64,000 nt of DNA from Candidatus Omnitrophota bacterium (GTDB taxonomy: Bacteria > Omnitrophota > Omnitrophia > Omnitrophales > Aquincolibacteriaceae): the NCBI GenBank assembly GCA_043718225.1, contig JAYSWD010000001.1, positions 49,092-113,091 on the forward strand. Direction: 5' to 3'. The notes beneath the pieces were generated by a model, which worked only from the letters and a program-made list of their open reading frames with translations, did not search any database and was not told the origin of the DNA. A program made the position numbers and the translations under genes. Position 1 is the first letter of the stretch, and each line of letters opens with the position of its first letter. Below are positions 3,968 through 45,310 of this stretch, in pieces.

Positions 3968-4144
3968 CATGACGGCTTCATTTGCGGAGCGAAGCGAGCG
4001 CAAATGAAATTGCCGGAATGTCATCCCAGAAACGCGTAGCGTTATCTGGGATCCAGACAAATGAAAAATTGGATTCCCGCCGGAGTTTACCCTCGAGCGA
4101 CATCGGGGGCGGGAATGACAGAAAGATTTTACAGTATCATTTTT

Positions 4145-4168
4145 GCTCTGCGCCTTTGGCGCAACCGC
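4145..4168 (+). repeat. Family A short hairpin repeat (CTCTG-RGC-loop-GCY-CAACCGC)
   Basis: gctctgcgcctttggcgcaaccgc. Confidence 0.8.
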
Positions 4169-4245
4169 CGAAAGCAAAAAAGATTTTTTTGAAAACCGCA
4201 TGTTGAGTTTATCGAGACATGCAAAATGTGAACGAGGAAAAGAAA

Positions 4246-4623: not shown

Positions 4624-4661
4624 AAAAAATCCCCGTTACTTTCGAGTAGCGGGGATTTTTC
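4624..4661 (+). terminator. Rho-independent terminator after rpmE
   Basis: aaaaaatccccgttactttcgagtagcggggattttt. Confidence 0.6.
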
Positions 4662-4668
4662 TATTTAG

Positions 4669-4692
4669 GCTCTGGGCGCTTCGCCCAACTGC
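4669..4692 (+). repeat. Family A repeat
   Basis: gctctgggcgcttcgcccaactgc. Confidence 0.8.
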
Positions 4693-4725
4693 TAACAATA
4701 ATTACATGCCGAGCTTTATCGAGGC

Positions 4726-5817
4726 GTGAAAGACATAACTGTGAAAATACGGGAAAGATTAGAAAAGCTGGTTTTAAGAAAAGGCGAGGTCGAGGCACAA
4801 TTGTCCGATCCCGTGACACTGCAGAATTCCACGCTGGTTCAAAAATTGACACGCGAACTTTCCTCAATCCGTCCGATCATTAAAAAATTCGCGGAATATA
4901 AAATGAGCGAAGCCCATCGCCACGCGCTTGACTCCGCATCCGATTCCGATCCCGAAATGGAAAAAATGATCCGCGAAGAAAAAGAAGCTCTCGACCAAAA
5001 ACTTGGAAGCCTTCAACTTGAGATGGAAGATTTATTTTTAAAGGGCAGTGAGCCCGACGCTTCGCGCGACGTGATCATGGAAATCCGCGCCGGAACAGGC
5101 GGAGAAGAAGCGGCGCTATTTGTTGGCGTGCTTGTGCGCATGTACGAATATTTCGCGGGCAAACACGGCCTTAAAACGGCGATGATGGAATCAAGCGAAA
5201 CCGAATTGGGCGGTTACAAAGAAGCTGTTTTTTCAATCGCCGGTGAAAACGCTTACAGCTACTTTCGATTTGAACGCGGCATTCATCGCGTTCAGCGGGT
5301 TCCCAAAACCGAATCCAGCGGACGCGTGCATACTTCCGCGGTTACCGTTGCGGTGCTTGCCGAAGTTTCCGAAGAAGAAGTCGAAATACTGCCGAAAGAT
5401 CTCAAAATTGACGTTTACCGTGCCGGCGGCAAAGGCGGACAGCATGTCAATAAAACCGAATCGGCTGTCCGTATTACGCATCTTCCGAGCGGTTTTGTCG
5501 TGACGTGTCAGGATGAAAGGTCCCAAATGAAGAATAAAGCCAGCGCAATGCGTGTATTGAGGGCGCGGCTTTTTGAATTCCAGCGCGCCAAGGAGCATGA
5601 CGCCCAGGCCAAGATTCGCAAAGAGCAGGTTGGAACCGGCGATAGATCGGGCAAAATACGCACCTATAACTATCCGGATCAACGGGTTACGGATCATCGA
5701 ATCGGTTTGACATTGCATAGTCTCGATGATATTCTCGACGGCTCTTTGGACCCTATTGTGGACGCCCTATGGCGCGCTGAAAGGGAAAAAAAGCTGACTC
5801 AGGCTAGCGATAGCTGA
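4726..5817 (+). CDS. prfA: peptide chain release factor 1
   Basis: GGQ motif (AGGKGGQHVNKTESAVRITHLPSG) and RF-1 domain architecture. The stop overlaps the start of prmC. Confidence 0.9.
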   Translation: MKDITVKIRERLEKLVLRKGEVEAQLSDPVTLQNSTLVQKLTRELSSIRPIIKKFAEYKMSEAHRHALDSASDSDPEMEKMIREEKEALDQKLGSLQLEMEDLFLKGSEPDASRDVIMEIRAGTGGEEAALFVGVLVRMYEYFAGKHGLKTAMMESSETELGGYKEAVFSIAGENAYSYFRFERGIHRVQRVPKTESSGRVHTSAVTVAVLAEVSEEEVEILPKDLKIDVYRAGGKGGQHVNKTESAVRITHLPSGFVVTCQDERSQMKNKASAMRVLRARLFEFQRAKEHDAQAKIRKEQVGTGDRSGKIRTYNYPDQRVTDHRIGLTLHSLDDILDGSLDPIVDALWRAEREKKLTQASDS

Positions 5818-6731
5818 TGCTGATCGGCGAAGCTTTATCTCTAGGAGAAAACCGGCTGAAACTTGCTGGCGTCCTTGAGGCTAGGACTGAATGCGAGCAT
5901 ATGTTGATGGAGCTGATGAACGCGAATCGTTCAGAAGTGCTGTTTTATATTAGCTCTGAGCAAAGCTCAACCGCGCCGTTTCATTTTGCCTCTGAGCCTT
6001 CGGCTCAAACGGCGAAGAGCAATTTGACGGCGCAGCAAGAGAAACAGTTTTTTGATTGGATTGCGAGCAGGGGAAAAAGAATTCCTTTGGCGTATTTGCT
6101 GGGCGATACGTTTTTTCATTCTTTGAAATTAAAAGTGGGACCGGGATGTTTGATTCCGCGGCCTGAAACAGAACGGTTGGTGGAAGCGGCGCTTAAGATT
6201 ATCCGCGAAGATAAATTGAATGCCCCGGTAATCATGGATATTGGAACGGGATCGGGCGCGATTGCGCTTGCGATTTTAGCCGCCGTGCCTGAGGCTAAAG
6301 CGGTGATGGTTGACTTTTCTGCGGAAGCTTTGAAGATTGCCCGTGAGAATACTGCGGAACTTGGATTTTTAGGCCGCGCTGAGTTAATTCACTCAGATTT
6401 ATATTTAAATATACCGTCTGATTTGAAAGTTAATTTGATTTTGTCGAATCCGCCCTATTTAACGGCCGAAGATTTGGCCGGCCTGCAGCCGGAAGTGGTT
6501 TTTGAGCCGCGAATGGCATTAGACGGCGGGAAAGACGGCTTGGATTTTTACCGGAAAATGATTCCGGATGCCGCAAAGTTTTTAAAGCCGCAAGGCTGGT
6601 TGGGATTTGAAGTCGGCGCCGGACAGGCCCAGGCAGTTAGCGCAGAGTTAAAGAGAAACGGTTATGAAGATCTGAGAATTATTAAAGATCATCAAGATAT
6701 AGAGCGCATAGTTTTAGCCCGAAAAGGTTGA
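5817..6731 (+). CDS. prmC: release factor glutamine N5-methyltransferase PrmC/HemK, carrying an in-frame ~20 aa insertion made of two Family A repeat copies
   Basis: NPPY motif (LSNPPYL), the SAM-binding MDIGTGSGAIA, and PLAYLLG..LIPRPETE. It aligns collinearly with E. coli PrmC except for the insertion SSTAPFHFASEPSAQTAKSN. Confidence 0.85.
   Translation: MLIGEALSLGENRLKLAGVLEARTECEHMLMELMNANRSEVLFYISSEQSSTAPFHFASEPSAQTAKSNLTAQQEKQFFDWIASRGKRIPLAYLLGDTFFHSLKLKVGPGCLIPRPETERLVEAALKIIREDKLNAPVIMDIGTGSGAIALAILAAVPEAKAVMVDFSAEALKIARENTAELGFLGRAELIHSDLYLNIPSDLKVNLILSNPPYLTAEDLAGLQPEVVFEPRMALDGGKDGLDFYRKMIPDAAKFLKPQGWLGFEVGAGQAQAVSAELKRNGYEDLRIIKDHQDIERIVLARKG
5943..5964 (+). repeat. Family A repeat, in-frame inside prmC
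   Basis: gctctgagcaaagctcaaccgc. Confidence 0.8.
5979..6004 (+). repeat. Family A repeat, in-frame inside prmC
   Basis: cctctgagccttcggctcaaacggcg. Confidence 0.75.
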
Positions 6732-6777
6732 AATGCATCGCCGGTCGGGCGTAAGCCCGGAGGCTTAAAAGATACCG

Positions 6778-8043
6778 ATGGACAAAATAATTGTAAAAGG
6801 CGGAGCCAAGTTAAAAGGCGAAGTCGAAATTTCAGGAGCAAAAAACTCCGCGCTGCCCTTGATGGCGGCGGCACTGCTTTCGCCGGATGAATCGATTTTT
6901 GAAAATGTGCCGAATCTGAGCGACATCATGACGATGTGCAAACTTTTGCGTTCGCTCGGCGCGCGTGTTACGTACGAAGACGGAACGCTTGCGATTAAGC
7001 CTGGCAAAAATTTAAAAGCATTCGCGCCTTATAAGTTAGTCAGCACGATGCGTGCTTCTGTTTGTGTTATGGGGCCATTGCTTGCACGGCTGGGTGAAAC
7101 AGAAGTTTCTTTGCCGGGCGGCTGTGTTATCGGGCCGCGTCCGATCGATTTACATTTAAAGGGCTTGGAAGCATTGGGCGCGAAGATTGAAATTCGCCAC
7201 GGTTATGTGCGTGCGAAAGCGGGACCGAAAATGCGCGGCGCGGAAATTTATCTCGGCGGGTCTTACGGCTCGTCTGTTTTGGCGACAGGCAATGTCATGA
7301 TGGCGGCGACATTGACGCCCGGTAAAACGATTATCGAAAGCGCCGCCTGCGAGCCTGAAGTTGTGGATCTCGCGAATTTTTTGAAAGCGATGGGCGCTAA
7401 AATTTCAGGTGAAGGTTCGCCGCGCATTGAAATCGAAGGCGTCAAAAAGTTGCACGGAGCCAATTATCGCGTCATACCGGATCGCATCGAAGCCGGAACT
7501 TTTATGTTTGCAGCGGCGATTACGGGCGGCGATTTGATGATTAAAAAAATGGAGCCGAGCCATCAGAACGCGGTGATTGATAAATTGCTGCAAACCGGTG
7601 TTAAAGTTGTGAAGTATAAAAACGCCGTGCGTGTTTCGCGCCGCGGAAAACTGAAAGCCGTCGATATGACGACATTGCCGTATCCGGCGTTTCCGACGGA
7701 TTTGCAGGCGCAAATGATGGCCTTGATGACAATTGCGCCGGGCATCAGCGTGATTACGGAAAAAATTTATCCGGATCGTTTCATGCATGTCAGCGAGCTC
7801 GGACGTATGGGCGCGAAGATCATTATGGAAGGCTCGACATCAGTTATTCATGGTGTAAAGAAATTGAGCGGCGCGCCGGTGATGGCATCTGATTTGCGCG
7901 CGAGCGCGGCGCTGGTTTTGGCGGGTTTGGTCGCGGACGGTGAAACGGAAATAAGCCGTGTTTATCATTTGGATCGCGGATATGACCGGTTGGAGCAGAA
8001 GCTTTTAAAAGTCGGCGCGTCTATAAGAAGAGTAAAAGAGTAA
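6778..8043 (+). CDS. murA: UDP-N-acetylglucosamine 1-carboxyvinyltransferase
   Basis: N-terminus MDKIIVKGGAKLKGEVEISGAKNSALP, EPSP-synthase-like fold, 421 aa. Confidence 0.9.
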   Translation: MDKIIVKGGAKLKGEVEISGAKNSALPLMAAALLSPDESIFENVPNLSDIMTMCKLLRSLGARVTYEDGTLAIKPGKNLKAFAPYKLVSTMRASVCVMGPLLARLGETEVSLPGGCVIGPRPIDLHLKGLEALGAKIEIRHGYVRAKAGPKMRGAEIYLGGSYGSSVLATGNVMMAATLTPGKTIIESAACEPEVVDLANFLKAMGAKISGEGSPRIEIEGVKKLHGANYRVIPDRIEAGTFMFAAAITGGDLMIKKMEPSHQNAVIDKLLQTGVKVVKYKNAVRVSRRGKLKAVDMTTLPYPAFPTDLQAQMMALMTIAPGISVITEKIYPDRFMHVSELGRMGAKIIMEGSTSVIHGVKKLSGAPVMASDLRASAALVLAGLVADGETEISRVYHLDRGYDRLEQKLLKVGASIRRVKE

Positions 8044-8067
8044 ACGCGAAGCGTTTTCTTTTACTCG

Positions 8068-8091
8068 GCTCTGCGCTTTTGGCGTAACCGC
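8068..8091 (+). repeat. Family A repeat
   Basis: gctctgcgcttttggcgtaaccgc. Confidence 0.75.
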
Positions 8092-8150
8092 GCAAAACTA
8101 GCAAATTGTAGATTAGTAGTTAGTAAGTAGTAATAAAGGGAGAAAAGAAA

Positions 8151-8408
8151 ATGGCAGTAAGAATTCGTATGAAGCGTTTTGGCGCGAAGAACCGTCCGCA
8201 ATGGCGCATTGTTGTCGCGGACGCAAAGTCACCGCGTGACGGCCGTTTCATCGAGGAAATCGGTTTTTATGACGCTCTTCCGAAAGAGGAAAAGTTTGTC
8301 TTGAAACAGGATCGTCTCGATCATTGGACCAAGGCCGGTGCTCAAGTTAGCATTTCGGTGAAAAGTCTGATTAAGAAGCAGCAGCGCAAGACCAAAGCGA
8401 AGGCGTAA
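8151..8408 (+). CDS. rpsP: 30S ribosomal protein S16
   Basis: MAVRIRMKRFGAKNRPQWRIVVAD signature. An RBS GGGAG lies upstream. Confidence 0.9.
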   Translation: MAVRIRMKRFGAKNRPQWRIVVADAKSPRDGRFIEEIGFYDALPKEEKFVLKQDRLDHWTKAGAQVSISVKSLIKKQQRKTKAKA

Positions 8409-8420
8409 CAGTTTTCTTTC

Positions 8421-8442
8421 GCTCTGGGCTTTGCCCAACCGC
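8421..8442 (+). repeat. Family A repeat
   Basis: gctctgggctttgcccaaccgc. Confidence 0.8.
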
Positions 8443-8475
8443 GACGCGGTTGTGGTGTATCCGCAGAGCAGCAAT

Positions 8476-9237
8476 ATGTTAGAAATTGATATCGTCACGT
8501 TGTTTCCGGATTTTTTCGAATCTCCGTTGAAACAGTCGCTTTTGAAGCGCGCGCAGGCCGACGGATTGATTAAAATCCGCGTGCATAATCTGCGCGATTG
8601 GGCGCGCGATAAGCATCACAAAACGGATGATTCGCCTTTTGGCGGCGGCCCCGGAATGGTGTTTAAGATCGAGCCAATGCATGAGTGCTTGAAAGAAATC
8701 GGTGCGGGAGCATGGAAAATTTTGCTCGATGCGCATGGCGAATTGCTGAAGCCAAAGTTGGCTGAAAGCCTCGCGCAGAAAAAGAAAATTGTTTTGATCG
8801 CGGGCCATTACGAAGGTATGGACTACCGCATTAAAGAACACCTGGTCGACCAAATGGTTTCGGTCGGTGACTTTATTACGATGGGCGGCGAAGCCCCGGC
8901 CTTGTGTTTGATTGAAGCGCTGACAAGGTTTGTTCCGGACGTGCTCGGAAACGAAGAATCGACGGCAGAAGAGAGTTTTAGCGGCGGGATGCTTGAATAT
9001 CCGCAGTATACGCGGCCGCGCGAATATAACGGTTGGGAAGTTCCCGAAGTTTTGTTTTCGGGAAATCATGCGAAGATAAAAAAGTGGCGTAATGAGACGG
9101 CGGAGAAATTGACGCGGAAGCACAGACCAGACTTACTACATTCTGCTTCTGCGCTGCCGGCGCAACCAGCGGATGAAGAGGGCAACAAAACCGTGAAGGT
9201 TAAGCTGAAAAGAGAAAGAGCTTCGAAAAAGAAATAA
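8476..9237 (+). CDS. trmD: tRNA (guanine37-N1)-methyltransferase
   Basis: SPOUT TrmD motifs (IVTLFPDFF, SPFGGGPGMV, LIAGHYEGMDYR). I chose the ATG at 8476 (MLEIDIV); the upstream in-frame stretch is Family A repeat sequence. The C-terminal tail contains a Family A copy in-frame. Confidence 0.85.
   Translation: MLEIDIVTLFPDFFESPLKQSLLKRAQADGLIKIRVHNLRDWARDKHHKTDDSPFGGGPGMVFKIEPMHECLKEIGAGAWKILLDAHGELLKPKLAESLAQKKKIVLIAGHYEGMDYRIKEHLVDQMVSVGDFITMGGEAPALCLIEALTRFVPDVLGNEESTAEESFSGGMLEYPQYTRPREYNGWEVPEVLFSGNHAKIKKWRNETAEKLTRKHRPDLLHSASALPAQPADEEGNKTVKVKLKRERASKKK
9147..9170 (+). repeat. Family A variant, in-frame in the trmD 3' end
   Basis: cttctgcgctgccggcgcaaccagc. Confidence 0.6.
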
Positions 9238-9275: not shown

Positions 9276-9313
9276 ATGCAGAGCAAAAATTTAAAGAAAT
9301 AATAATAGGAAAA

Positions 9314-9336
9314 TGCGGTTGGGCGAAAGCCCAGAG
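9314..9336 (-). repeat. Family A repeat, reverse orientation
   Basis: gcggttgggcgaaagcccagagc. Confidence 0.8.
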
Positions 9337-9354
9337 CAAAAAGGAGACAGGAAA

Positions 9355-9669: not shown

Positions 9670-9690
9670 GAGCCAAGAGACTTCCTTTTT

Positions 9691-9713
9691 GCTCTGGGCT
9701 TTTGCCCAACCGC
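9691..9713 (+). repeat. Family A repeat
   Basis: gctctgggcttttgcccaaccgc. Confidence 0.8.
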
Positions 9714-9764
9714 ATGAGCTGAGCATGAGCAACTGCGGATCATTGGAAATGCTCGGATTAAGTT

Positions 9765-10508
9765 ATGGCCACAGTAGGGTCTTCCGAAACTCAAATTGAG
9801 TTATTTGATTTTGACAGGAAGGCCATTCTTTCCGGTGGTCAGGCCGAAGGCGATACTGTCGGTCGCTGGGCCGGAGTCGATGAGGCCGGCCGAGGACCGC
9901 TCGCGGGTCCTGTGGTTGCCGCCGCGGTCATTCTGATCTTTCCCGAAGGCCTTGAAGGCTTAAATGACTCCAAGAAGCTCACCGCTAAAAAACGAAAAAT
10001 GCTTTACAGCGAAATTATTTCGCGCCAGTTGGTGGGAATCGGCTTCGCCGACGAAAAAGAAATCGACACGATTAATATTCTGCGAGCGTCATTACTTGCC
10101 ATGAAGCGCGCCGTGCTTGATCTTTGCATTTCTCCGACCGGCCTTTTAATTGACGGAACTTATTCCACGGATTTACCTCTTCCGCAAAAAACAGTGATCG
10201 AAGGCGACGCCAAATCCGCGAGTATCGCCGCCGCCTCGGTCGTTGCGAAAGTCGTGCGGGACGCGTGGATGGAAAAATGTGATATCGAATATCCGCTTTA
10301 TGGTTTCGGGAAACACAAGGGCTATGGAACTAAGATTCATATGGATGCGCTAACGGAACATGGGCCATGCGCGATTCACCGCCGTAGCTTTGAGCCGGTG
10401 CGACGGCTACATTTAAGCTCTGAGCCAAGGCTCAACCGCACGGAAAATCCCAGCTCTGGAATTTTGCCCCTGTCTGCCGGCAGGCAGGCAACCACGCACA
10501 TGCCATGA
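9765..10508 (+). CDS. rnhB: ribonuclease HII with a ~35 aa C-terminal tail encoded by repeat elements
   Basis: AGVDEAGRGPLAGPVV and HRRSFEPV motifs. The tail after ..PVRRLHL is encoded by Family A copies plus a CTGCCGGCAGG palindrome. The start is uncertain, since an internal Met is possible. Confidence 0.8.
   Translation: MATVGSSETQIELFDFDRKAILSGGQAEGDTVGRWAGVDEAGRGPLAGPVVAAAVILIFPEGLEGLNDSKKLTAKKRKMLYSEIISRQLVGIGFADEKEIDTINILRASLLAMKRAVLDLCISPTGLLIDGTYSTDLPLPQKTVIEGDAKSASIAAASVVAKVVRDAWMEKCDIEYPLYGFGKHKGYGTKIHMDALTEHGPCAIHRRSFEPVRRLHLSSEPRLNRTENPSSGILPLSAGRQATTHMP
10417..10439 (+). repeat. Family A repeat, in the rnhB C-terminal tail
   Basis: gctctgagccaaggctcaaccgc. Confidence 0.8.
10469..10488. 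repeat. Family E GC palindrome (CTGYCYGCCGGCRGGCAGG)
   Basis: cctgtctgccggcaggcagg, in the rnhB tail, where it encodes ..AGRQA.. Confidence 0.55.
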
Positions 10509-12321: not shown

Positions 12322-13893
12322 ATGACAAGCATATTCAAAAAAATATTCGCGGCGATTCTGTTGGTTGCAGTCGCGCTGCCGTGCAATGCGCCGGCGGCAG
12401 AAACAGCCGATTACCGTAAACAGGAAACGCTGCCTTACAGAGATATTTACGAGCAAAATGTTCACAGTGAAATCGTCAATCAGCTCGACTTAAGCCGGCA
12501 GACGAGAAGGCTTTTTAACAAGCCTCTGCGCGCGGCCAATATTAATGCTTTTGATGAAGTTCCGGACTCCTCTTTTTTTACGAATCGCCACGCGCGCGCC
12601 GCTCTTTCCAAAGAGCAGCTCGCTAAAGGATTTGTTGAAAACAGCGGGCCTGATCTTGCGGGTGATTTAGCCGTGATAGGCGGAGAGATCGAAGGCGTGC
12701 ACCCAAGCTATTTTGTGAAGGATTCGCGCGGCGACCAGTATATTTTAAAATTTGATTCAGCCGAAAATCCGGAACTTTCTACCGCCGCGGAAATTATCGG
12801 CAGCCGCTTTTATCACGCGCTTGGTTATAACGTGCCGCAGTATACAATCGAGTTAATCTCGGCGGAAAAAGTAAAAGCGGCTGAAGGGTCTATGCTCCGC
12901 GATGACACGGGCTTCCGTAAACCGCTGACTCAGGAACGGCTCGATGAATATTTTCTTTTTTCGCCGCAAACCGCCGACGGATCCTACCGCGTTGCTGCAA
13001 GCAAAATTCTTACGGGAGAAAATAAAGGCTATTTCAGCCTTATCGGCCGCCGCAAAAACGACCCTGATGACATTATTAATCACCGTGACCGCAGGGAAAT
13101 CCGCGCTTTAGCCGTATTTGCCGCGTGGCTTAATAACAGCGGCGTCAGTGAAACCAATACGCTGGATGTTGTTGCGAATGAAAACGGGAAAATATTTTTA
13201 AAGCATTATTTGATTAATTTTAACGGCGTTCTCGGAAGCGCGGGACACGGGGCTAAGCCGCCGATGTACGGGCATGAATACATCGCCGATTTTAGCGACA
13301 TAGCCAAGGCCTTTTTTACATTGGGCTTTTGGGAAAAGCCCTGGCAAAAACGCTGGCGCGAAGCCGGCGAAAAACCGAATGACTCGACGGCGGTTGGATA
13401 TTTGGACAATCGCGAATTTAAGCCGGGTAAATATAAAAACCAATTACCTTACGAATCTTTTAAGCGCGTGACCCGCGCGGATGGATTTTGGGCGGCAAAG
13501 CAAATCGCCGCTTTCAGCGATGAAGATATTCGCACCATGGTCTCAGCCGGAAAATTAACTTCTTCCGAAGACGCCGAATTCATTTCAAAAAATCTTATAG
13601 AACGGCGCGATTTGATAACTCAATATTGGTTTTCGATGGCGGCGCCTTTGGATGACTTTAGCGTTGAATCCGGCAAACTCGTGTTTAAGGATTTAGCCAA
13701 GCCCGCAGCCTCTGTGTATTACGTCACAGCGTTAAATGAAAAAAATAAAGCTGTGAAGTCCTGGACGGTAAATGAACCGCGTATCAACGTAGACTCCAAT
13801 CAGACTTTAGAAGTCCGCACCTCCGAAAATGGCCCGTTTGTCCGCGTCGCTGTGAATGCGGACAATGTTCTCTCCGTTCGACACGAAGACTAA
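12322..13893 (+). CDS. hypothetical secreted protein (523 aa), signal peptide, translationally coupled to the upstream barrel gene
   Basis: The ATG at 12322 (MTSIFKKIFAAILLVAVALPCNA) comes 2 nt after the barrel gene's stop. I recognise no known family. Confidence 0.5.
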   Translation: MTSIFKKIFAAILLVAVALPCNAPAAETADYRKQETLPYRDIYEQNVHSEIVNQLDLSRQTRRLFNKPLRAANINAFDEVPDSSFFTNRHARAALSKEQLAKGFVENSGPDLAGDLAVIGGEIEGVHPSYFVKDSRGDQYILKFDSAENPELSTAAEIIGSRFYHALGYNVPQYTIELISAEKVKAAEGSMLRDDTGFRKPLTQERLDEYFLFSPQTADGSYRVAASKILTGENKGYFSLIGRRKNDPDDIINHRDRREIRALAVFAAWLNNSGVSETNTLDVVANENGKIFLKHYLINFNGVLGSAGHGAKPPMYGHEYIADFSDIAKAFFTLGFWEKPWQKRWREAGEKPNDSTAVGYLDNREFKPGKYKNQLPYESFKRVTRADGFWAAKQIAAFSDEDIRTMVSAGKLTSSEDAEFISKNLIERRDLITQYWFSMAAPLDDFSVESGKLVFKDLAKPAASVYYVTALNEKNKAVKSWTVNEPRINVDSNQTLEVRTSENGPFVRVAVNADNVLSVRHED

Positions 13894-13903
13894 GATCTCT
13901 CTA

Positions 13904-13925
13904 CTCTGAGCCTCAGCTCAACCGC
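13904..13925 (+). repeat. Family A repeat
   Basis: actctgagcctcagctcaaccgc. Confidence 0.8.
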
Positions 13926-13953
13926 AAAGTCTCATTCTAATATATAATTTGGC

Positions 13954-19679: not shown

Positions 19680-21311
19680 ATGTCGTCAAAAAAAACTGCC
19701 AACCCACTGAAAAAAAATTCCGCGAAACTTTCGCGAGTTAAACGCGCGCTTATCTCTGTCTCGGATAAGGAGGGCTTAATTCCTTTCGCGAAAAATCTGC
19801 GCCGTTTCAAAGTCGAAATTATTTCCACAGGCGGCACACTCAAAGCCTTGAAAGAAGCCGGGATTCCCGCAATCGCGATTGACCAAGTTACCGGCTTTCC
19901 TGAAATGATGGACGGTCGCGTCAAAACTTTGCATCCCAAAATTCACGGCGGTCTTTTATATGTGCGCGGCAACAAGTCGCATGAAAAACAAGCCAAAGCC
20001 CACGGCATTACCGCGATTGATTTAGTGGTGGTGAATCTTTATCCGTTTGAAGCTGTTACTCAGGACCCGAACGTGGAGCTCGCGCATGCAATTGAGAATA
20101 TTGATATTGGCGGACCTTCCATGCTGCGTTCAGCCGCCAAAAATTTTAAATCAGTTACGGTCGTTACGGATCCAAATGACTATCACCGCGTACTGCTTGA
20201 GATGGACACTTATAAAGGCGCAACTTCATATGATTTGCGTTTCGAACTTGCGCGCAAAGTTTACGCACGTACATCCGCTTATGATGCGGCCATTGCGGCA
20301 CATTTGAATGCGGAAGTTTCTTCCAAAGAAGAAGTGCTGCCCGCATCGATTGTAGTAGGCCTAAAAAAAACTCAGGAATTACGCTACGGAGAAAACCCAC
20401 ATCAGCGTGCGGCATATTATTCAGTTTCCGGTTGCGCCGGAGGCGCAGAGGGAAAAAACAAGTTGGCATGGAAACAGCTGCACGGCAAAGAACTTTCTTA
20501 TAATAATTTGGTGGATATGGAAGCGGCGATCGAATGCTCCGCCGAATTTAAAGAACCCTCGATTTGCGTGATTAAACATACCAACCCATGCGGCCTGGCG
20601 CAAAATAAAAATCTCGTTCAGGCTGTGGATGAGGCGATTGATTCAGACCCCGTTTCCGCATTTGGCGGCATCGTTGGCATTAATCGCATTTGCACCGAAG
20701 AAGTCGCACAGCGGATTTTAGACCGCCTCGGTTTTTTTGAAATTATCGTTGCGCCCGGCTACAAACCGAAAGCGCTTGCAAAACTTCAGGCGCGTAAAAA
20801 TTTGCGCATTATGGAAGTTGCTGGGCTTGATAATCAATCCGGTTTTGAAATTAAATTGCTGCGCACAGGCGCATTGGTTCAGGAGAAGAATCATCCGATC
20901 CGTTTCCGGCTTGCGGAGTTCAAGAAAAACCTGAAATGGGTTACGAAACATAAACTCACTAAAGATAAATTGGATGAACTGGTTTTTGCCTATCAATGCG
21001 CGAAACTTGTGAAATCAAACGCGATTGTTTTGACACAAGGTTTTAAAACCGTCGGTGTGGGTGCGGGTCAAATGTCGCGGGTCGACTCGACAAAAATCGC
21101 CTGTGATAAAGCCGGCGCGAAAACACGCGGCGCTTTCGTCGGCAGTGATGCATTCTTTCCGATGCCTGACTCAATCGAATATGCCGCAAAGTTCGGCATT
21201 GAAGCTATCATCCAGCCGGGTGGATCGATCAAAGATCAAGATGCGATTGATACTTGCAATAAACTGGGAATAGCCATGGTCTTCACTGGCGAACGACACT
21301 TCAAACATTAA
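19680..21311 (+). CDS. purH: bifunctional AICAR transformylase / IMP cyclohydrolase
   Basis: MGS-like N-terminus (KRALISVSDKEGL) and AICARFT domain, 543 aa. Confidence 0.9.
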   Translation: MSSKKTANPLKKNSAKLSRVKRALISVSDKEGLIPFAKNLRRFKVEIISTGGTLKALKEAGIPAIAIDQVTGFPEMMDGRVKTLHPKIHGGLLYVRGNKSHEKQAKAHGITAIDLVVVNLYPFEAVTQDPNVELAHAIENIDIGGPSMLRSAAKNFKSVTVVTDPNDYHRVLLEMDTYKGATSYDLRFELARKVYARTSAYDAAIAAHLNAEVSSKEEVLPASIVVGLKKTQELRYGENPHQRAAYYSVSGCAGGAEGKNKLAWKQLHGKELSYNNLVDMEAAIECSAEFKEPSICVIKHTNPCGLAQNKNLVQAVDEAIDSDPVSAFGGIVGINRICTEEVAQRILDRLGFFEIIVAPGYKPKALAKLQARKNLRIMEVAGLDNQSGFEIKLLRTGALVQEKNHPIRFRLAEFKKNLKWVTKHKLTKDKLDELVFAYQCAKLVKSNAIVLTQGFKTVGVGAGQMSRVDSTKIACDKAGAKTRGAFVGSDAFFPMPDSIEYAAKFGIEAIIQPGGSIKDQDAIDTCNKLGIAMVFTGERHFKH

Positions 21312-30672: not shown

Positions 30673-32436
30673 GCAGCCAAAGAATCTCCCAAACCCTCAG
30701 GTTATCTTGTTTTCGCGCGTAAATACCGCCCTCAGACTTTTGACGAAGTCGTCGGGCAGCAATCCACGCTGACAACGCTTAAAAACGCGCTGGCTTCGGG
30801 ACGTATCCCGCAAAGTTTTATTTTCTCAGGTTCCCGCGGCGTCGGAAAGACATCCGTCGCGCGTATTCTCGCGAAAGCTTTGAACGCGTCCGGCGGAGCA
30901 AACCCCGATTTTGACCGTAAAGACGCGGCTGCCCGTGAAATTGAAGAAGGCCGCTCCATGGATGTGCTTGAAATTGACGGCGCATCCAATCGCGGCATCG
31001 AAGAAATCCGTTCCTTGCGCGAAACCGTTAAATTCAAACCCGCATCCGGCGCGTATAAAATTTATATTATCGATGAAGTCCATATGCTCACAACCGAAGC
31101 GTTCAATGCTTTGCTCAAAACGCTTGAAGAGCCGCCACCGCATGTAAAATTTATTTTCGCGACAACTGAAATTCACAAAGTGCCGCTGACGATTCTTTCG
31201 CGCTGTCAGCGTTTTCATTTTCGCCGGCTCACCGCGGATGAAATTGTTGAGAAACTGGTCGATATCGCGAAAATTGAAAAAATCAAATGCGACAAAGACG
31301 CACTTTATTTAATCGCGCGCGCGAGTGACGGAGCGCTGCGTGACGCTGAAAGCCTGCTGGATCAAATTTCCAGTTTTTCCGACGGTGAAATTAAAGAAGA
31401 ATCCGTTCTGACATTGCTCGGAATTGCCTCCGACAAAATCAATGAAACTCTGATCGAAGCGGTGAAGGCGCGCAGCGGCCAGGATATTTTGGCCGTGATT
31501 CAATCTTTTTATGAAAGTGGCGGCGACTTGCTTCAGCTTTCGCGCGGATTTTTTGAAATTTTAAGGCATTTGCTTGTGCTGCAGCATGTCAAAGACACAC
31601 AGGGTTTAATCGAAGCGGGACCCGCGATGCTTGAAATGTTGAAAAAACATAAAGCCTCTTTTAGCGAAGCCGAAATTTTACTCGGCCTTGCCATCTTCCA
31701 AAACCTGCAGGCTGATTTGCGCCGGCCCGTAACCGCGCCGCGCTTCATGGTTGAAGCCGCTTTTTTAAAATTGATTTATGCCGACGGCATGCGTTCCGTA
31801 AACGAACTGATTTCTAATTTCTCCCTGCCTGCCGCCCGGCCGGTGAGCGAGCCGCAACCGGCAATACCAAAACGAAATATTTCTTCTGCTCCGGCTCAGC
31901 AAAACGTTCCACAGCCGCCGATTAAATCTCAGTCTGTCGCTCCGGTAAAACCTTCAACATACAATGAACCCAAAGCGCAGATCCAACCTAGGGTTGGTGG
32001 CTCGGGAACAGAGACGCTGGTTGCGCCTTTGGCGCAGAAGCAAAATGAAATAGCAATTGAACAGGTTAAGACGGCTTGGCCGAACGTGATTGAATCCGTC
32101 AAACAAAAGCGCATGTCCACCGGCATTTTTCTTTCCGAGGCCGAACCTGTCGAAGTAGATGACACTGTGATTATTTTAGGGCTTCCCGAAGAGTTTAAAT
32201 TTCATAAGGAGAGCCTTGAAAAAGATAACAATAAAAAACTGGTCGAAGATTGTTTTTCAGAAAGTATCGGAACCAAAGTCCGCGTGCGTTTTGTCGTGAC
32301 ACAGCAAGCTGCCGTCGAAAGACCGGCACCCCGGCCCGTGACGCTTCCTTCGGAGTCCGAAAAACGGGAGCTGCCAGATATTATTACGAAAGCGCTGGAT
32401 GTTTTTGACGGCGCTAAAATCGTTCGTGCTGAATAA
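30661..32436 (+). CDS. dnaX: DNA polymerase III subunit gamma/tau
   Basis: AAA+ clamp-loader motifs (GSRGVGKTS, DEVHMLT, SRCQRF). The start may be the second ATG at 30670. Confidence 0.9.
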   Translation: MTPMAAKESPKPSGYLVFARKYRPQTFDEVVGQQSTLTTLKNALASGRIPQSFIFSGSRGVGKTSVARILAKALNASGGANPDFDRKDAAAREIEEGRSMDVLEIDGASNRGIEEIRSLRETVKFKPASGAYKIYIIDEVHMLTTEAFNALLKTLEEPPPHVKFIFATTEIHKVPLTILSRCQRFHFRRLTADEIVEKLVDIAKIEKIKCDKDALYLIARASDGALRDAESLLDQISSFSDGEIKEESVLTLLGIASDKINETLIEAVKARSGQDILAVIQSFYESGGDLLQLSRGFFEILRHLLVLQHVKDTQGLIEAGPAMLEMLKKHKASFSEAEILLGLAIFQNLQADLRRPVTAPRFMVEAAFLKLIYADGMRSVNELISNFSLPAARPVSEPQPAIPKRNISSAPAQQNVPQPPIKSQSVAPVKPSTYNEPKAQIQPRVGGSGTETLVAPLAQKQNEIAIEQVKTAWPNVIESVKQKRMSTGIFLSEAEPVEVDDTVIILGLPEEFKFHKESLEKDNNKKLVEDCFSESIGTKVRVRFVVTQQAAVERPAPRPVTLPSESEKRELPDIITKALDVFDGAKIVRAE

Positions 32437-35320: not shown

Positions 35321-36586
35321 ATGTCGCAGGAGCTTTTGTCATCGTTGGAATATATCGAAAAAGAAAAGGGCGTTTCGCGCGAAGTCCTTTTTGACGCGAT
35401 TCGTCACGCCTTAATTTCCGCTTTACGTAAATCTTTTCCACAGTACGGCGAAGATTTTGACGTGCAAATCGATCCTCAAACGATGCGCATTCAATTATTG
35501 CGCGCCGGAAAACCTTTTCAAGATCCGCATTTCGGGCGCATCGCCGCACAAACCGCGAAGCAGGTCATCATTCAGAAAATCCGCGAAGCACAGCGGGATT
35601 CTATTTTTGATGAATTTACCGCGAAGCAAGGCGATATCGTGAACGGTACCGTTCATCGCGTGGACGCGCGCGCCATTGTTGTGGACTTCGGAAAAACTGA
35701 AGGAATTCTGCCTGCCCGTGAAATGTCCCCGGCGGATCAATACCGCCAAGGCAATGTCATCCGCGCTTTTGTGCTCGAAGTGAATCGTACGCCGCGCGGC
35801 CCGGAAATCATTCTTTCTCGCACGCATCCTGATTTCGTAAAAAAACTTTTTGAGCTCGAAGTTCCCGAAATCGCGGACAAACTTGTTTTGATTAAGGGCG
35901 TCGCGCGTGAGGCGGGCTCGCGCAGCAAGGTCGCCGTTGTTTCTTCGGATCCCAAAATCGACTGCGTTGGTTCCTGTGTGGGCGTACGCGGGCAGCGCGT
36001 GAAGAATATCGTGCGCGAACTGGAAGGCGAAAAAATTGATATTGTTCCGTACTCCGAAAAAATCGAAGAATTTATTAAAAGCGCGATGTCGCCGGCGGAA
36101 ATTTTTGAAATGAAACTTGACCGTCAGCGGCTAGTTGCCGACTTGCTTGTTAAAGATGACCAGCTTTCGCTGGCGATTGGAAAGCGGGGACAAAATGTGC
36201 GCCTTGCTTCCAAACTTGTGGGATGGACGATTGATGTTCGCAGCGAAGGCCAGCGCGCGGCTCTGGACGTGCTGCCCGGAATTGATGCCGCGGTGATTCA
36301 AACATTGAAGGCCGGCGGAATTTTATCTATCAAAGATGTTTTGAAGTCATCTCCCGAACAGCTGTCGCAGATTGCCGGGCTCGACTTGGCAACCGCGCAA
36401 AAAATTTTACAAGCCGCGGAAGCAACCAAGGCCGTAAAAGTTGAACCGGAAAAAGAAATACCAGTCGCAACTGAAAATATTGATGCGGTATCCGAAAATG
36501 AAAGTCCCGCTGTGGACAGTCAGCCCGAAGCAGAGAAGCCGTCTCATTCTTCCTCTGAGCCCTTGGCTCAACCGGATAAGGACTAA
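35321..36586 (+). CDS. nusA: transcription termination/antitermination factor NusA, C-terminal tail ending in a Family A repeat
   Basis: NusA N-terminal, S1 and two KH domains. The tail ..SSEPLAQPDKD is encoded by the CTCTGAGC..GCTCAACCGG element. Confidence 0.9.
   Translation: MSQELLSSLEYIEKEKGVSREVLFDAIRHALISALRKSFPQYGEDFDVQIDPQTMRIQLLRAGKPFQDPHFGRIAAQTAKQVIIQKIREAQRDSIFDEFTAKQGDIVNGTVHRVDARAIVVDFGKTEGILPAREMSPADQYRQGNVIRAFVLEVNRTPRGPEIILSRTHPDFVKKLFELEVPEIADKLVLIKGVAREAGSRSKVAVVSSDPKIDCVGSCVGVRGQRVKNIVRELEGEKIDIVPYSEKIEEFIKSAMSPAEIFEMKLDRQRLVADLLVKDDQLSLAIGKRGQNVRLASKLVGWTIDVRSEGQRAALDVLPGIDAAVIQTLKAGGILSIKDVLKSSPEQLSQIAGLDLATAQKILQAAEATKAVKVEPEKEIPVATENIDAVSENESPAVDSQPEAEKPSHSSSEPLAQPDKD
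36553..36576 (+). repeat. Family A repeat, in the nusA C-terminal tail
   Basis: cctctgagcccttggctcaaccgg. Confidence 0.75.
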
Positions 36587-40142: not shown

Positions 40143-41132
40143 ATGCGGATTTTTAAGGTAACGGCGTCATTTAAAAAAATTACCAAACGGCCGCTTGTTC
40201 TTGCGCTCGGAAATTTTGACGGTATTCACCGGGGGCATCAAAAGCTTTTAGATTATGTTGTCAGCCAGGCAAAGAAACTGCATGGTTGCGCGGCAGTGTT
40301 TACTTTTCAAGAGCATCCGCAAGCGATTTTGCATCCGGAACATGCGCCCGAAAGCCTGCAAGCGCTTGAGCAAAAACTGGCGCTTTTCCGAGCGCGCGGA
40401 ATCGAGATTTCTTTTTTACAGAATTTTGATTCGCGTTTTTCGATGCTTTCGGCGGAAGAGTTTGTAAAAAAAATTCTTGTTAAGCAGCTTGGCATTCGCG
40501 AGATTTGCCTCGGTTATAACGCGCGTTTTGGCCGCGGGCGGGAAGGCGATGCAGATCTTCTCCGTAAGCTGGGCAAAGAATGCGGTTTTAAGGTTTTTCA
40601 GGCGCGGCCTGTCGCTTGGCGGGGAGTGCCGGTTTCAAGTACGGCGGTCAGAAAAGCCGTACATGCGGGGAAAATGAACCTCGCGGCGCAATTATTGGGG
40701 CGGCCGTGGAGCGTAGCGGGTATCATCAAGCGCGGAAGTGCGCGCGGGGAAAAACTGGGGTTTGCTACGGCGAACATGGATTTAAATAAATATGCACGCC
40801 CGGCTTTTGGAGTTTATGCCGTCCATGTGCTGCTACATAATATTGCCTCTGCGCCTAAGGCGCAACCGGCGCAGCGTCGTTCAGCCTCTGGGCTCACCCA
40901 ACCGGCATTTTGCAACGGTGTGGCGAATTTTGGATTGAGGCCTACTTTTGGAGGAACGGTAAAGCCTGTTTTGGAAACCCATCTTTTTAATTTTAAGAAA
41001 AACATTTACGGAAAAAAAATAGAAGTATTTTTTGTGAAGCGCCTGAGAAATGAAAAAAAATTTACCTCCAAAGAAGAGCTCGCGAAACAAATTCAAAAAG
41101 ATATTCGTGCCGCGAAGGTCGCGTTGAAATAA
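40143..41132 (+). CDS. ribF: bifunctional riboflavin kinase / FMN adenylyltransferase, with a ~20 aa in-frame insertion made of two Family A repeats
   Basis: N-terminal FMNAT (GNFDGIHRGHQ) and C-terminal riboflavin kinase (GVYAV..GVANFGLRPTF). The insertion ASAPKAQPAQRRSASGLTQPA sits in a loop that is absent from E. coli RibF. Confidence 0.85.
   Translation: MRIFKVTASFKKITKRPLVLALGNFDGIHRGHQKLLDYVVSQAKKLHGCAAVFTFQEHPQAILHPEHAPESLQALEQKLALFRARGIEISFLQNFDSRFSMLSAEEFVKKILVKQLGIREICLGYNARFGRGREGDADLLRKLGKECGFKVFQARPVAWRGVPVSSTAVRKAVHAGKMNLAAQLLGRPWSVAGIIKRGSARGEKLGFATANMDLNKYARPAFGVYAVHVLLHNIASAPKAQPAQRRSASGLTQPAFCNGVANFGLRPTFGGTVKPVLETHLFNFKKNIYGKKIEVFFVKRLRNEKKFTSKEELAKQIQKDIRAAKVALK
40846..40870 (+). 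repeat. Family A repeat, in-frame inside ribF
   Basis: gcctctgcgcctaaggcgcaaccggc. Confidence 0.75.
40884..40906 (+). repeat. Family A repeat, in-frame inside ribF
   Basis: gcctctgggctcacccaaccggc. Confidence 0.75.
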
Positions 41133-42730: not shown

Positions 42731-43000
42731 ATGGCATTGACGAAAGAAAAAAAGAAAGAAACGATCGACAAATTTAAGATCAACAAGAACGATGCCGGCT
42801 CTGCTGCCGTTCAGGTTGCCATTTTAACCGAAAGAATTAATGGTCTTTCCGGTCATTTTGAAAAAAATAAAAAAGATAATCATTCCCGTCGCGGACTTTT
42901 GACGATGGTTGCCCGCCGTAAGACACTTTTGACTTACGTGATGCGGCAAGATCCGAAGAAACATGCGGATCTCCTCGAAAAGCTGAATCTGCGCAAGTAA
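42731..43000 (+). CDS. rpsO: 30S ribosomal protein S15
   Basis: GSAAVQVAILTERINGLSGHF signature, 89 aa. Confidence 0.9.
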   Translation: MALTKEKKKETIDKFKINKNDAGSAAVQVAILTERINGLSGHFEKNKKDNHSRRGLLTMVARRKTLLTYVMRQDPKKHADLLEKLNLRK

Positions 43001-43016
43001 GCACTGTTTTGTTTTT

Positions 43017-43039
43017 GCTCTGCGTTGAATACAACCGCA
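43017..43039 (+). repeat. Family A degenerate copy in the rpsO-pnp spacer
   Basis: gctctgcgttgaatacaaccgc. Confidence 0.55.
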
Positions 43040-43089
43040 CTGCGATACACTTCAAATTATTAACAACTAACACAAACGGAATTTAATTT

Positions 43090-45279: not shown

Positions 45280-45287
45280 TTCGTTTT

Positions 45288-45310
45288 GCCTCTGCGCAAA
45301 GCGCAACCGA
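45288..45310 (+). repeat. Family A repeat
   Basis: gcctctgcgcaaagcgcaaccga. Confidence 0.75.

What the first reader, a model, noticed from the sequence alone, without database searches (positions are those of the whole stretch)
5940..6010. Two tandem repeat copies form a 20 aa in-frame insertion inside PrmC
From memory, the ORF aligns with E. coli PrmC as ..RSEVLFYISSEQ[insert]LTAQQEKQFFDWIASRGKRIPLAYLLG against ..RTFILAFGETQ-LTDEQCQQLDALLTRRRDGEPIAHLTG. The extra 60 nt (SSTAPFHFASEPSAQTAKSN) are exactly two Family A elements. Reading frame and downstream homology are both preserved. This implies a tolerated mobile-element insertion in an essential translation-factor methyltransferase.
Basis: partly seen in the sequence, partly recalled or inferred. 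Interest (0 to 1): 0.8.

Follow-up and report, generated by a model that had tools for sequence, protein, structure and literature searches.

The report
Hairpin repeats read through inside prmC
Two copies of a small hairpin-forming DNA repeat that litters this Omnitrophota genome sit in frame inside the release-factor methyltransferase gene and add about 21 residues to a surface loop; this is a real but previously described kind of event (REP-like repeats inside genes).

Summary
Window 5936-6018 carries two head-to-tail copies of a ~36-40 nt repeat (T-rich leader, CTCTG, 6-bp stem with a free loop, CAACCGC). The family has 27 strong copies in 64 kb (16 strict matches against 0.01 expected). 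The hairpin is supported by covariation. Both copies lie in frame in prmC (5817-6731) and add ~21 aa compared with E. coli PrmC and with close relatives whose site is empty.

These were two separate events. The downstream copy is shared, nucleotide for nucleotide, with five related assemblies. The upstream copy is seen only in this genome. Other relatives carry copies at other prmC positions (aa ~113, ~126, the C-terminus), so the repeat has entered this gene repeatedly.

The insert is a low-confidence coil between helices 3 and 4 of the N-terminal helical bundle, not the inter-domain linker. Codons on both sides remain under purifying selection.

Other housekeeping genes in the window carry copies too (TrmD, RNase HII, NusA, IF-2, DnaX, RibF, PurH), nearly always in the one frame that encodes Ser/Pro/Ala/Gln.

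The closest known things are intragenic REPs and Rickettsia palindromic elements. The GTAG/CGTC tag is absent, and no transposase was found. A block of synonymous-site identity around the shared copy is unexplained.

The parts
5817..6731 (+). prmC (release-factor N5-glutamine methyltransferase), 304 aa. Its start overlaps the prfA stop by 1 nt.
5936..5974 (+). Upstream repeat unit (core 5954-5972, CTCTGAGC-AAA-GCTCAACC), read as ..ISSEQSSTA... Seen only in this genome.
   Evidence: (22.3 bits).
5972..6018 (+). Downstream repeat unit (core 5990-6010, CTCTGAGCC-TTC-GGCTCAAAC), read as ..FHFASEPSAQTAK... The outer 8-bp stem 5974-5981/6007-6014 encloses the inner hairpin. This copy is shared with L081, L084, L089, L090 and L091.
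   Evidence: (45.8 bits).
6735..6781 (-). Degenerate relic copy in the prmC-murA spacer.
   Evidence: 20.4 bits, E 0.002; sequence.
4128..4174 (+). Family copy in the rho-rpmE spacer. This is the best-scoring copy, and its position is conserved in more distant relatives (L001, L003, L084, L087).
   Evidence: (52.4 bits).
4652..4698 (+). Family copy in the rpmE-prfA spacer.
8051..8097 (+). Family copy, 26 nt after the murA stop.
8404..8448 (+). Family copy, 14 nt after the rpsP stop.
9129..9175 (+). Family copy inside the trmD C-terminal tail (SASALPAQP), after the Pfam domain ends.
9309..9354 (-). Family copy upstream of rplS, in inverted orientation.
   Evidence: (I5).
9674..9719 (+). Family copy, 23 nt after the rplS stop.
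10400..10445 (+). Family copy inside the rnhB C-terminal tail (LSSEPRLN).
13886..13931 (+). Family copy, 11 nt after a stop codon.
20422..20468 (-). Family copy inside purH, in inverted orientation (GCAGGAEG). About 4 extra residues compared with solved PurH.
32011..32057 (-). Family copy inside the dnaX inter-domain linker, in inverted orientation (VAPLAQKQNE).
36535..36581 (+). Family copy forming the last residues of nusA (SSSEPLAQPDKD*).
36705..36751 (+). Family copy in the infB N-terminal variable region (LASASATKP).
37014..37060 (+). Second family copy in the infB N-terminal region (SASGPAAQP).
40829..40875 (+). Family copy inside the ribF flavokinase domain (IASAPKAQP). About 10 extra residues compared with solved RibF.
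43000..43044 (+). Family copy, 18 nt after the rpsO stop.
45272..45417 (+). Three head-to-tail copies (cores 45290, 45328, 45391) between pnp and dut.
45947..46063 (.). Inverted pair of copies (45947-45993 on +, 46017-46063 on -) upstream of the Pfam-supported start of ftsK.
48598..48641 (-). Family copy in a spacer. The overlapping 126-aa ORF has no Pfam support.
54515..54559 (+). Family copy, 7 nt after the ferrochelatase stop.
57664..57708 (+). Family copy, 5 nt after the mscL stop.
57817..57863 (-). Family copy at or upstream of the start of an MFS transporter gene.

Best explanation
The segment consists of two head-to-tail units of a lineage-specific, REP-like dispersed hairpin repeat. 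Each unit is about 36-40 nt: a T-rich leader of roughly CYGTnTCnTTTTGC, then CTCTG, then a 6-7 bp stem with a free 3-5 nt loop, then CAACCGC.

The family is mainly extragenic. It sits a few nucleotides after stop codons in housekeeping operons, mostly in the direction of transcription. Copies that land inside genes survive only where the protein tolerates them (surface loops, linkers, termini), and only in the reading frame that yields a small polar Ser/Pro/Ala/Gln peptide.

In prmC, an older copy entered the loop between helices 3 and 4 of the N-terminal bundle. A second copy was later added next to it in this genome. Both are transcribed and translated as part of a functional PrmC.

- **Shown:** the family, the hairpin, the presence/absence polymorphism, repeated independent hits in prmC, the frame bias, and purifying selection on both sides of the insert.
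- **Inferred:** how the copies spread. I think the most likely route is copy-and-paste of the hairpin as single-stranded DNA by an enzyme acting in trans (HUH/Y1-type, as proposed for REPs), helped by homologous recombination between lineages. That PrmC stays active is also inferred.
For: **Family and chance.** 16 strict matches against 0.01 expected. 27 copies at 32-52 bits.

**Hairpin.** 95.5% of cells are paired, against 23-44% when the register is slid. The third stem pair is A-T in 10 copies, C-G in 10 and G-C in 6, with 1 unpaired.

**Mainly extragenic.** 10 of 27 copies are firmly intragenic, against 88.5% coding sequence (p = 3e-10). Nine copies lie 5-26 nt after a stop codon.

**Insertion polymorphism in prmC.** Empty, one-copy and two-copy alleles exist. 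Relatives carry copies at other prmC sites.

**Recurring variants.** The same loop variants (AGCCTTCGGCT and AGCAAAGCT) occur side by side at a different prmC site in L086.

**Lineage restriction.** 78 of 80 genome loci have no strict match. The covariance model hits only close relatives. Only 3 of 80 sampled metagenome pattern hits are real.

**Frame bias.** All 8 same-strand intragenic copies in the window, and all but one of those in relatives' prmC, are in the TCT-GNG frame. The other frames give Cys/Trp/Leu/Arg or a stop.

**Structure.** The insert is a coil with pLDDT below 50 between helix 38-49 and helix 72-84, and the overall fold matches 2b3t_A with TM 0.80.

**Selection.** dN/dS is below 1 on both sides of the insert.

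**Other genes.** RibF has about +10 aa and PurH about +4 aa exactly at their copies.

**Precedent.** Intragenic REP dimers encoding 20-30 aa, and sub-families with alternative complementary stem residues, are described in PMC3733652.
Against: - No transposase of any kind occurs among 53 window ORFs scanned with Pfam.
- No RAYT homologue occurs in any sequence held. However, only about 200 kb of this clade was available.
- The GTAG or CGTC tag that defines the described REP superfamilies is absent.
- Copies are mostly single or head-to-tail, not the inverted dimers typical of REPINs.
- Loops vary freely while stems and flanks are held. One orthologous spacer copy (rho-rpmE) has kept its hairpin through compensatory changes in relatives that otherwise have few copies. 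The shared prmC copy sits in a block with almost no synonymous change. These three points fit selection on the sequence or structure better than passive junk.
- In relatives, elements in the prmC-murA spacer are accompanied by 27-63 nt duplications of the murA 5' end. A Y1 transposase would not produce these.
- Translation of the insert and activity of the protein are not shown.
Confidence: 0.75

Rival explanations
1. The repeat is a host cis-acting RNA or DNA signal, for example an mRNA 3'-end, processing or stability hairpin, or the binding site of one protein that marks translation-related operons. On this reading the copies inside genes, including prmC, are kept because they act at the nucleotide level and are not merely tolerated. 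This does not exclude a mobile origin.
For: - Stems and flanks are conserved while loops drift.
- Nine copies lie 5-26 nt after stop codons, and 21 of 27 are co-oriented with transcription.
- Copies cluster in the rho-rpmE-prfA-prmC-murA-rpsP-trmD-rplS-rnhB and nusA-infB-rbfA-truB-ribF...rpsO-pnp-dut operons.
- The rho-rpmE copy is retained, with compensatory stem changes, in L001, L003 and L087, where the family is otherwise rare.
- The shared prmC copy shows no synonymous change between the window and L084, although gene-wide pS is 0.64. Third-position identity is 0.9-1.0 over about 40 codons in filled alleles only.
- The region folds better than shuffled sequence, z = -2.3 to -3.3.
Against: - There is no Rfam match even at permissive thresholds.
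- The hairpin is preceded, not followed, by the T-run, so it is not an intrinsic terminator.
- Presence is highly variable between genomes with ~90% identical MurA. This includes empty sites and different copies at the same spacer, which is unusual for a required signal.
- Near-total identity over ~110 nt, unpaired positions included, looks more like a recently exchanged tract than structural constraint.
- The strong reading-frame filter shows that selection acts on the peptide.
Confidence: 0.2
2. The insert is not made of mobile DNA. On this reading it arose in place, by tandem duplication or slippage within a fast-evolving, low-complexity PrmC loop, and its resemblance to the dispersed repeat is convergent or comes from gene conversion.
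For: - The two units are adjacent and 78% identical over 23 nt.
- PrmC evolves fast in this clade (46-66% identity while MurA is ~90%).
- Local duplications do occur next to elements in relatives.
Against: - Both units score as full family members with the family-wide flanks.
- The same two loop variants occur together at a non-homologous prmC site in L086, and similar ones occur in spacers.
- The family occurs in spacers, on both strands and in several frames.
- The chance expectation for the motif is 0.01 per window.
Confidence: 0.04
3. The feature is an artefact or a dead gene. Either the upstream copy is a misassembly across a short repeat in a metagenome-assembled genome, or prmC is a pseudogene, or it restarts downstream of the insert.
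For: - The exact two-copy junction has no match in the metagenome collection, and the protein is known from a single contig.
Against: - A 36-nt repeat is shorter than a sequencing read, and the insertion keeps the frame.
- The one-copy allele was assembled independently at least five times.
- The ORF is intact, with all catalytic motifs.
- dN/dS is below 1 upstream of the insert.
- There is no Met between the insert and residue 140.
Confidence: 0.04

Closest known systems
Intragenic REPs (GTAG- and CGTC-tagged palindromic repeats; Di Nocera et al. 2013, PMC3733652)
   Same: - Palindromic units of 20-40 nt with 5-9 bp stems and short loops.
- Sub-families that differ by complementary stem residues.
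- Located mostly within ~20 nt downstream of ORFs.
- A minority of copies lie inside genes. These are often dimers encoding 20-30 aa, sometimes twice in one ORF. They are reported in the PVC bacterium Opitutus terrae among others.
   Different: - There is no unpaired GTAG or CGTC tag.
- A conserved T-rich leader is part of the unit.
- Copies are single or head-to-tail, not head-to-head dimers.
- No RAYT was found.
- The host is an uncultured Omnitrophota lineage.
Rickettsia palindromic elements (RPE; Ogata et al. 2000, as summarised in PMC10969869)
   Same: - Palindromic repeats inserted in frame into many unrelated housekeeping genes.
- They encode a family-typical peptide that is tolerated at the protein surface.
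- The truB and dnaE/dnaX-type genes are also hit.
   Different: - RPEs are ~100-150 bp and add ~30-50 aa.
- Here the unit is ~36-40 nt and adds 7-12 aa.
- There is no sequence similarity.
REPIN-RAYT systems (Bertels and Rainey 2011, PMC3116915; PMC8266576)
   Same: A short hairpin with conserved flanks, present in high copy number, inherited vertically within a lineage, and probably dependent on an enzyme acting in trans.
   Different: - The replicative unit of a REPIN is an inverted REP doublet. Here inverted pairs are the exception (9309/9674 and 45947/46017).
- No RAYT was detected.
Uptake signal sequences of Pasteurellaceae (from my own knowledge of the field, not checked here)
   Same: - An asymmetric conserved core with a T-rich flank.
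- Many copies lie inside genes in preferred reading frames and in the less constrained parts of proteins.
- Spread involves recombination between lineages, which could explain the shared identical tract.
   Different: - Uptake sequences arise by substitution and do not lengthen proteins.
- They contain no hairpin.
- Here the copies are length-changing insertions.

Membership tests
REP superfamilies (GTAG / CGTC tagged) | Short (20-40 bp) palindromic unit with a stem of 5-13 bp and a short loop, in many copies | tested here: met
   6-bp core stem with 95.5% of cells paired. 27 copies in 64 kb.
REP superfamilies (GTAG / CGTC tagged) | Conserved unpaired GTAG (or CGTC) tetranucleotide at one end | tested here: not met
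   The flanks are CTCTG and CAACCGC, and their inner TG/CA are base-paired. GTAG, CGTC or their complements occur near only 4 of 27 copies, at inconsistent positions.
REP superfamilies (GTAG / CGTC tagged) | Predominantly extragenic, close to the 3' end of the upstream ORF | tested here: met
   10 of 27 copies are intragenic against 88.5% coding sequence, p = 3e-10. Nine copies lie 5-26 nt after a stop codon.
REP superfamilies (GTAG / CGTC tagged) | Association with a RAYT (Y1/HUH transposase) gene in the genome | tested here: inconclusive
   None among the window ORFs. None by phmmer with E. coli RayT in about 1.7 Mb of held sequence. The rest of the genome could not be read.
REPIN | Two REPs in inverted orientation forming the replicative unit | tested here: not met
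   21 of 27 copies are on the + strand. Tandem copies are head-to-tail with a 36-38 nt period. Only two inverted pairs exist.
Rickettsia palindromic elements | Palindromic element of ~100-150 bp inserted in frame, encoding a conserved peptide | tested here: not met
   In-frame insertion and a family-typical peptide are met. However, the unit is only ~36-40 nt and its sequence is unrelated.
MITE | Terminal inverted repeats and fixed-length target-site duplications | tested here: not met
   The unit has no TIRs beyond the single hairpin. Flanking duplications are seen only occasionally and vary in length: 15 nt in the window (borderline) and 27-63 nt in relatives.
PrmC/HemK (the host gene) | N-terminal five-helix bundle, beta-hairpin, and a class I MTase domain with a SAM-binding GxGxG motif and NPPY | tested here: met
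   Pfam PrmC_N and MTS domains. DIGTGSG and NPPY are invariant. The model matches 2b3t_A with TM 0.80.
Rfam families | A match to any curated RNA family | tested here: not met
   Only two tRNAs reach the gathering threshold. Nothing is credible in 4000-10600 at E <= 1.

The most novel reading that the evidence does not exclude
The repeat would be an undescribed class of hairpin element that is neither GTAG- nor CGTC-tagged and does not depend on a RAYT. It would spread both within genomes and between related genomes. Filled alleles would convert empty ones by homologous recombination and drag along flanking coding sequence. That would explain the ~110-nt tract that is almost identical in five otherwise diverged prmC genes, and the mosaic N-terminus of this genome's prmC. 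Its insertions would sometimes come with duplications of the adjacent gene's 5' end. It may at the same time have been recruited as an operon-internal RNA signal in translation-related operons.
Probability: 0.15. Interest if true: 0.65.

Novelty: new variant of a known kind. Interest (0 to 1): 0.4.

Why it matters
- It extends the known phenomenon of selfish palindromic DNA inside protein-coding genes to an uncultured phylum (Omnitrophota), with an unusually small unit of 7-12 residues per copy.
- One gene, prmC, has been hit independently at four or more positions in closely related genomes. That makes it a natural experiment on which loops of a methyltransferase accept extra peptide.
- There are practical consequences. 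Such repeats inflate apparent protein divergence (PrmC is 46-66% identical where neighbouring genes are 82-95%). They create spurious ORFs and start-site errors in MAG annotation, and they may mark recombination junctions.
- If the synonymous-site island reflects allele conversion, or a functional RNA embedded in coding sequence, the elements would be more than junk DNA.

Tried and rejected
- **Rfam.** The gathering-threshold search of the whole window and the permissive search of 4000-10600 matched nothing at the repeats.
- **Intrinsic terminator or promoter reading.** Rejected from the sequence: the T-run precedes the hairpin, and there is no -10-like element at a fixed distance.
- **Search for a mobilising enzyme.** Pfam on 53 window ORFs found no transposase. 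E. coli RayT searched by phmmer against 15,886 six-frame ORFs of everything held gave no hit even at E <= 10.
- **Independent confirmation of the two-copy junction.** No exact match in metagenome contigs. The P0001 gene record is not in the contig index.
- **General pattern scan of metagenomes.** This was mostly chance hits. Only L107, L111 and L163 carry real copies.
- **A longer composite element.** The conserved tract upstream of the shared copy occurs only in prmC and is not dispersed.
- **An outer leader-tail stem as a family feature.** It is present in the prmC downstream copy and a few others but is not general (inspection).
- **A partial rpmE 5' duplicate upstream of the 4128-4174 copy.** Not significant: 142 of 500 shuffles score as well.
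- **A second hairpin peptide (PPPAGGRE / ELPPTGGQ) in relatives' PrmC.** This is a different GC-rich hairpin with no counterpart in the window.
Full report
**What is at 5940-6010**

The window comes from an Omnitrophota metagenome-assembled genome. The PrmC homologues that carry a name are labelled Candidatus Omnitrophota, and the nearest genome locus is Ca. Omnitrophica UBA2337. The ORF 5817-6731 (304 aa) follows prfA, with a 1-nt overlap, and precedes murA. It is PrmC/HemK. It has the PrmC_N and MTS Pfam domains and its best solved homologues are HemK structures. An AlphaFold model (mean pLDDT 79.6) superposes on E. coli PrmC from the RF1 complex, 2b3t_A, with TM 0.80.

**The repeat family is real**

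- The pattern CTCTGNGC-N2-8-GCNCAACC occurs 16 times in the window, against 0.01 expected from shuffles.
- Relaxed criteria and a covariance model built on 27 copies recover all 27 at 32-52 bits, plus a few degenerate relics.
- The unit is about 36-40 nt: a T-rich leader (roughly CYGTnTCnTTTTGC), then CTCTG, then a stem and loop, then CAACCGC. Head-to-tail copies repeat every 36-38 nt.
- The hairpin is supported by covariation. 95.5% of cells are paired, against 23-44% when the 3' partner is slid. The third stem pair is A-T in 10 copies, C-G in 10 and G-C in 6, with one exception.
- Loops vary freely.

**The two copies in prmC**

The cores are 5954-5972 (CTCTGAGC-AAA-GCTCAACC) and 5990-6010 (CTCTGAGCC-TTC-GGCTCAAAC). 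Both are on the coding strand, 36 nt apart, and read as ..YISSEQSSTAPFHFASEPSAQTAKSN... An alignment with 29 relatives and E. coli HemK puts ~21 extra residues at this point. The HMMER alignment to E. coli HemK resumes at query residue 68, which equals E. coli residue 45.

The detail that the 60 nt it marked are 'exactly two elements' is not. The two units span about 5936-6018, the first leader overlaps codons that are ordinary PrmC, and the gap placement in a protein alignment is arbitrary.

**It is an insertion, and in fact two insertions**

DNA of the relatives shows three states:

| State | Loci | Sequence at the site |
|---|---|---|
| Empty | L082, also L001 and L002 | ..GTT TAC TTG CGC AAG CAG GAT GCG CTT.. 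(L082) |
| One copy | L081, L084, L089, L090, L091 | GCC TCT GAG CCT TCG GCT CAA ACG .. |
| Two copies | the window only | the shared copy plus AG CTCTGAGCAAAGCTCAACC GCG upstream of it |

The window adds 9 codons compared with the one-copy alleles and 21 compared with the empty allele. These genomes are close relatives (MurA about 90%, PrfA 82-88% and Rho 86-95% identical), while PrmC is only 46-66% identical.

The same family occupies other prmC positions in other relatives:

| Locus | Position of copies |
|---|---|
| L086 | tandem pair at aa 113 and 126, with the same two loop variants in reverse order |
| L088 | aa 45, aa 126 and the C-terminus |
| L084 | C-terminal tail (..GSGLRPTAGT*) |
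| L087 | two further sites |

The repeat has therefore entered this one gene many times.

**Where the insert sits in the protein, and whether it is translated**

In the model, residues 50-71 are coil, with pLDDT below 50 for residues 53-65. They lie between helix 38-49 and helix 72-84. That is inside the N-terminal five-helix bundle, which the literature describes as involved in RF binding (PMC3152332). It is not the linker to the MTase domain, which is the beta-hairpin at about 86-106.

The evidence that the whole ORF is translated:
- The 45 codons upstream of the insert have pN 0.24-0.39 against pS 0.55-0.83 in seven comparisons, and the rest of the gene is likewise constrained.
- ECEHMLM, DIGxGSG and NPPY are invariant.
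- There is no Met between the insert and residue 140.

An internal restart or a pseudogene is therefore unlikely. Translation itself is not shown.

**The wider picture in the window**

- Only 10 of 27 copies are firmly inside genes, although 88.5% of the window is coding (p = 3e-10).
- Nine copies lie 5-26 nt after a stop codon.
- 21 of 27 copies are on the + strand, as are nearly all genes.

The intragenic copies sit in these places:

| Gene | Position of the copy |
|---|---|
| TrmD, RNase HII, NusA | C-terminal tails |
| IF-2 | N-terminal variable region (two copies) |
| DnaX | inter-domain linker |
| RibF | a flavokinase loop, about 10 extra residues |
| PurH | a loop, about 4 extra residues |

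All eight same-strand intragenic copies use the frame TCT-GNG, which gives (A)S-x-P-x-A-Q-P. All but one of those in relatives' prmC do the same. The other frames would give Cys/Trp/Leu/Arg-rich peptides or a TGA stop. The inverted copies use the one open hydrophilic reverse frame or a stop-free variant. This filter is what one expects if the copies are translated and only harmless peptides survive.

**Distribution**

The family is lineage-restricted.
- 78 of 80 PrmC-bearing loci from other Omnitrophota and other phyla have no strict match.
- The covariance model hits only the close relatives, plus one copy each in L001-L003.
- Only 3 of 80 sampled metagenome pattern hits are real family members.
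- The single copies in the copy-poor relatives are mostly at one conserved position, the rho-rpmE spacer. There the stem has changed by compensatory substitutions (CGCC/GGCG against CGCAC/GTGCG).

**Mechanism**

What is shown is a dispersed hairpin repeat with insertion polymorphism and recurrent variants at non-homologous sites. How it moves is inferred. The anatomy most resembles REPs, for which mobilisation of single-stranded hairpins by RAYT transposases is the accepted proposal (PMC3116915, PMC8266576). But I found no transposase in the window and no RAYT homologue in any sequence held. The GTAG/CGTC tag is absent. I therefore describe it as REP-like, not as a member of those superfamilies.

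Two observations point to recombination or replication-based processes as well.

1. Among the one-copy alleles, third-codon-position identity is 0.89-1.0 over about 40 codons ending at the hairpin, against 0.5-0.65 elsewhere in the gene. Empty alleles show no such island. The upstream part of the tract is unique to prmC. The window shares only the hairpin and 22 nt downstream, and its N-terminal 45 codons are much more diverged from L081 (pS 0.73) than the rest of the gene (0.37-0.41). That suggests a mosaic with a junction at the repeat. Near-total identity that includes unpaired positions favours a recently exchanged tract over structural constraint, but I cannot decide between the two.
2. 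In L081, L084, L086 and L087 the prmC-murA spacer contains 27-63 nt duplicates of the murA 5' end, each ending at an element. A Y1 transposase would not make these.

**Comparison with what is known**

Repeats inside genes are established.
- Rickettsia palindromic elements are the classic case (summarised in PMC10969869).
- Di Nocera et al. (PMC3733652) list GTAG and CGTC REPs inside genes in several species, including Opitutus terrae. More than half of those are dimers encoding 20-30 aa, and sub-families differ by complementary stem residues.

The present case matches that description closely. What is new is the host phylum, the sequence family (no tag, a T-rich leader, head-to-tail arrangement), the small unit size, and the density of independent hits in one gene.

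**Verdict**

The finding is real and correctly read in its essentials. It is a new variant of a known kind of feature. It is of moderate interest, and it leaves one unexplained feature: the synonymous-site island.

Noticed in passing
Window 18562-18693, 21341-21433, 24106-24217, 33139-33249, 34784-34918, 38864-39008, 48517-48564; inverted copy at 2293-2423: A second, unrelated dispersed repeat family of about 90-130 nt (..GTATTACCGCATACGCCTCCGCG..CGCCTTGCA..TTTTTGA). It lies in spacers immediately upstream of + strand genes. There is no Rfam match. It could be a promoter or leader element, or a small RNA.
   Followed up: no
L081 708-830, L084, L089, L090, L091 (prmC codons ~25-66): An island of near-complete synonymous-site identity (third-position identity 0.89-1.0 against 0.5-0.65 gene-wide). 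It is found only in alleles carrying the shared hairpin copy and is absent from empty alleles. It contains its own 7-bp hairpin, CTGAACG-TTACA-CGTTCAG. It could be a recombination or co-conversion tract, or an embedded functional RNA.
   Followed up: partly
L084 6738-6931, L086 2814-2934, L087 2724-2811, L081 1621-1746: The prmC-murA spacer in relatives holds partial duplicates of the murA 5' end (27-63 nt, 73-93% identical to the resident gene). Each is followed by a repeat element, and together they create a short upstream ORF that ends on the TAA overlapping the real murA start (ATGGATAA).
   Followed up: partly
Window 9228-9242 and 9293-9307: A 15-nt direct repeat (14 of 15 identical, A-rich) flanks a degenerate family copy (9243-9275) plus a fragment of an inverted copy, just after the trmD stop. 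It could be a target duplication or chance.
   Followed up: partly
Window 34703-34773 (tRNA) and 34878-34918: An inverted copy of the 3' end of the tRNA gene lies about 100 nt downstream of it (41 nt, 76% complementary), with a member of the second repeat family between them. It could be a remnant of an integration site.
   Followed up: no
Window 48841-49014: Two tandem 88-nt units (74% identical) upstream of a response-regulator/histidine-kinase pair (49163-51135).
   Followed up: no
Window 24412-26151 and 26185-27960: Two adjacent paralogous CHASE2-GGDEF diguanylate cyclase genes, ~73% identical at the DNA level over long stretches.
   Followed up: no
L001 3009-3317: In Ca. Omnitrophica UBA2337 the rho gene has about 250 extra nucleotides between residues 419 and 438 of the window's Rho. 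I did not examine what they are.
   Followed up: no
L081, L001, L086 (prmC, between SDLF and NPPY): Relatives carry a different GC-rich hairpin insert (CCGCC..GGCGG, read as PPPAGGRE / ELPPTGGQ) in a loop of the MTase domain. The window has no counterpart.
   Followed up: partly
Window 3982-4206 and 48488-48868: ORFs of 74 and 126 aa without Pfam support overlap repeat copies in spacers. They are probably spurious ORFs created or extended by the repeats, which is a likely source of annotation errors in such genomes.
   Followed up: partly
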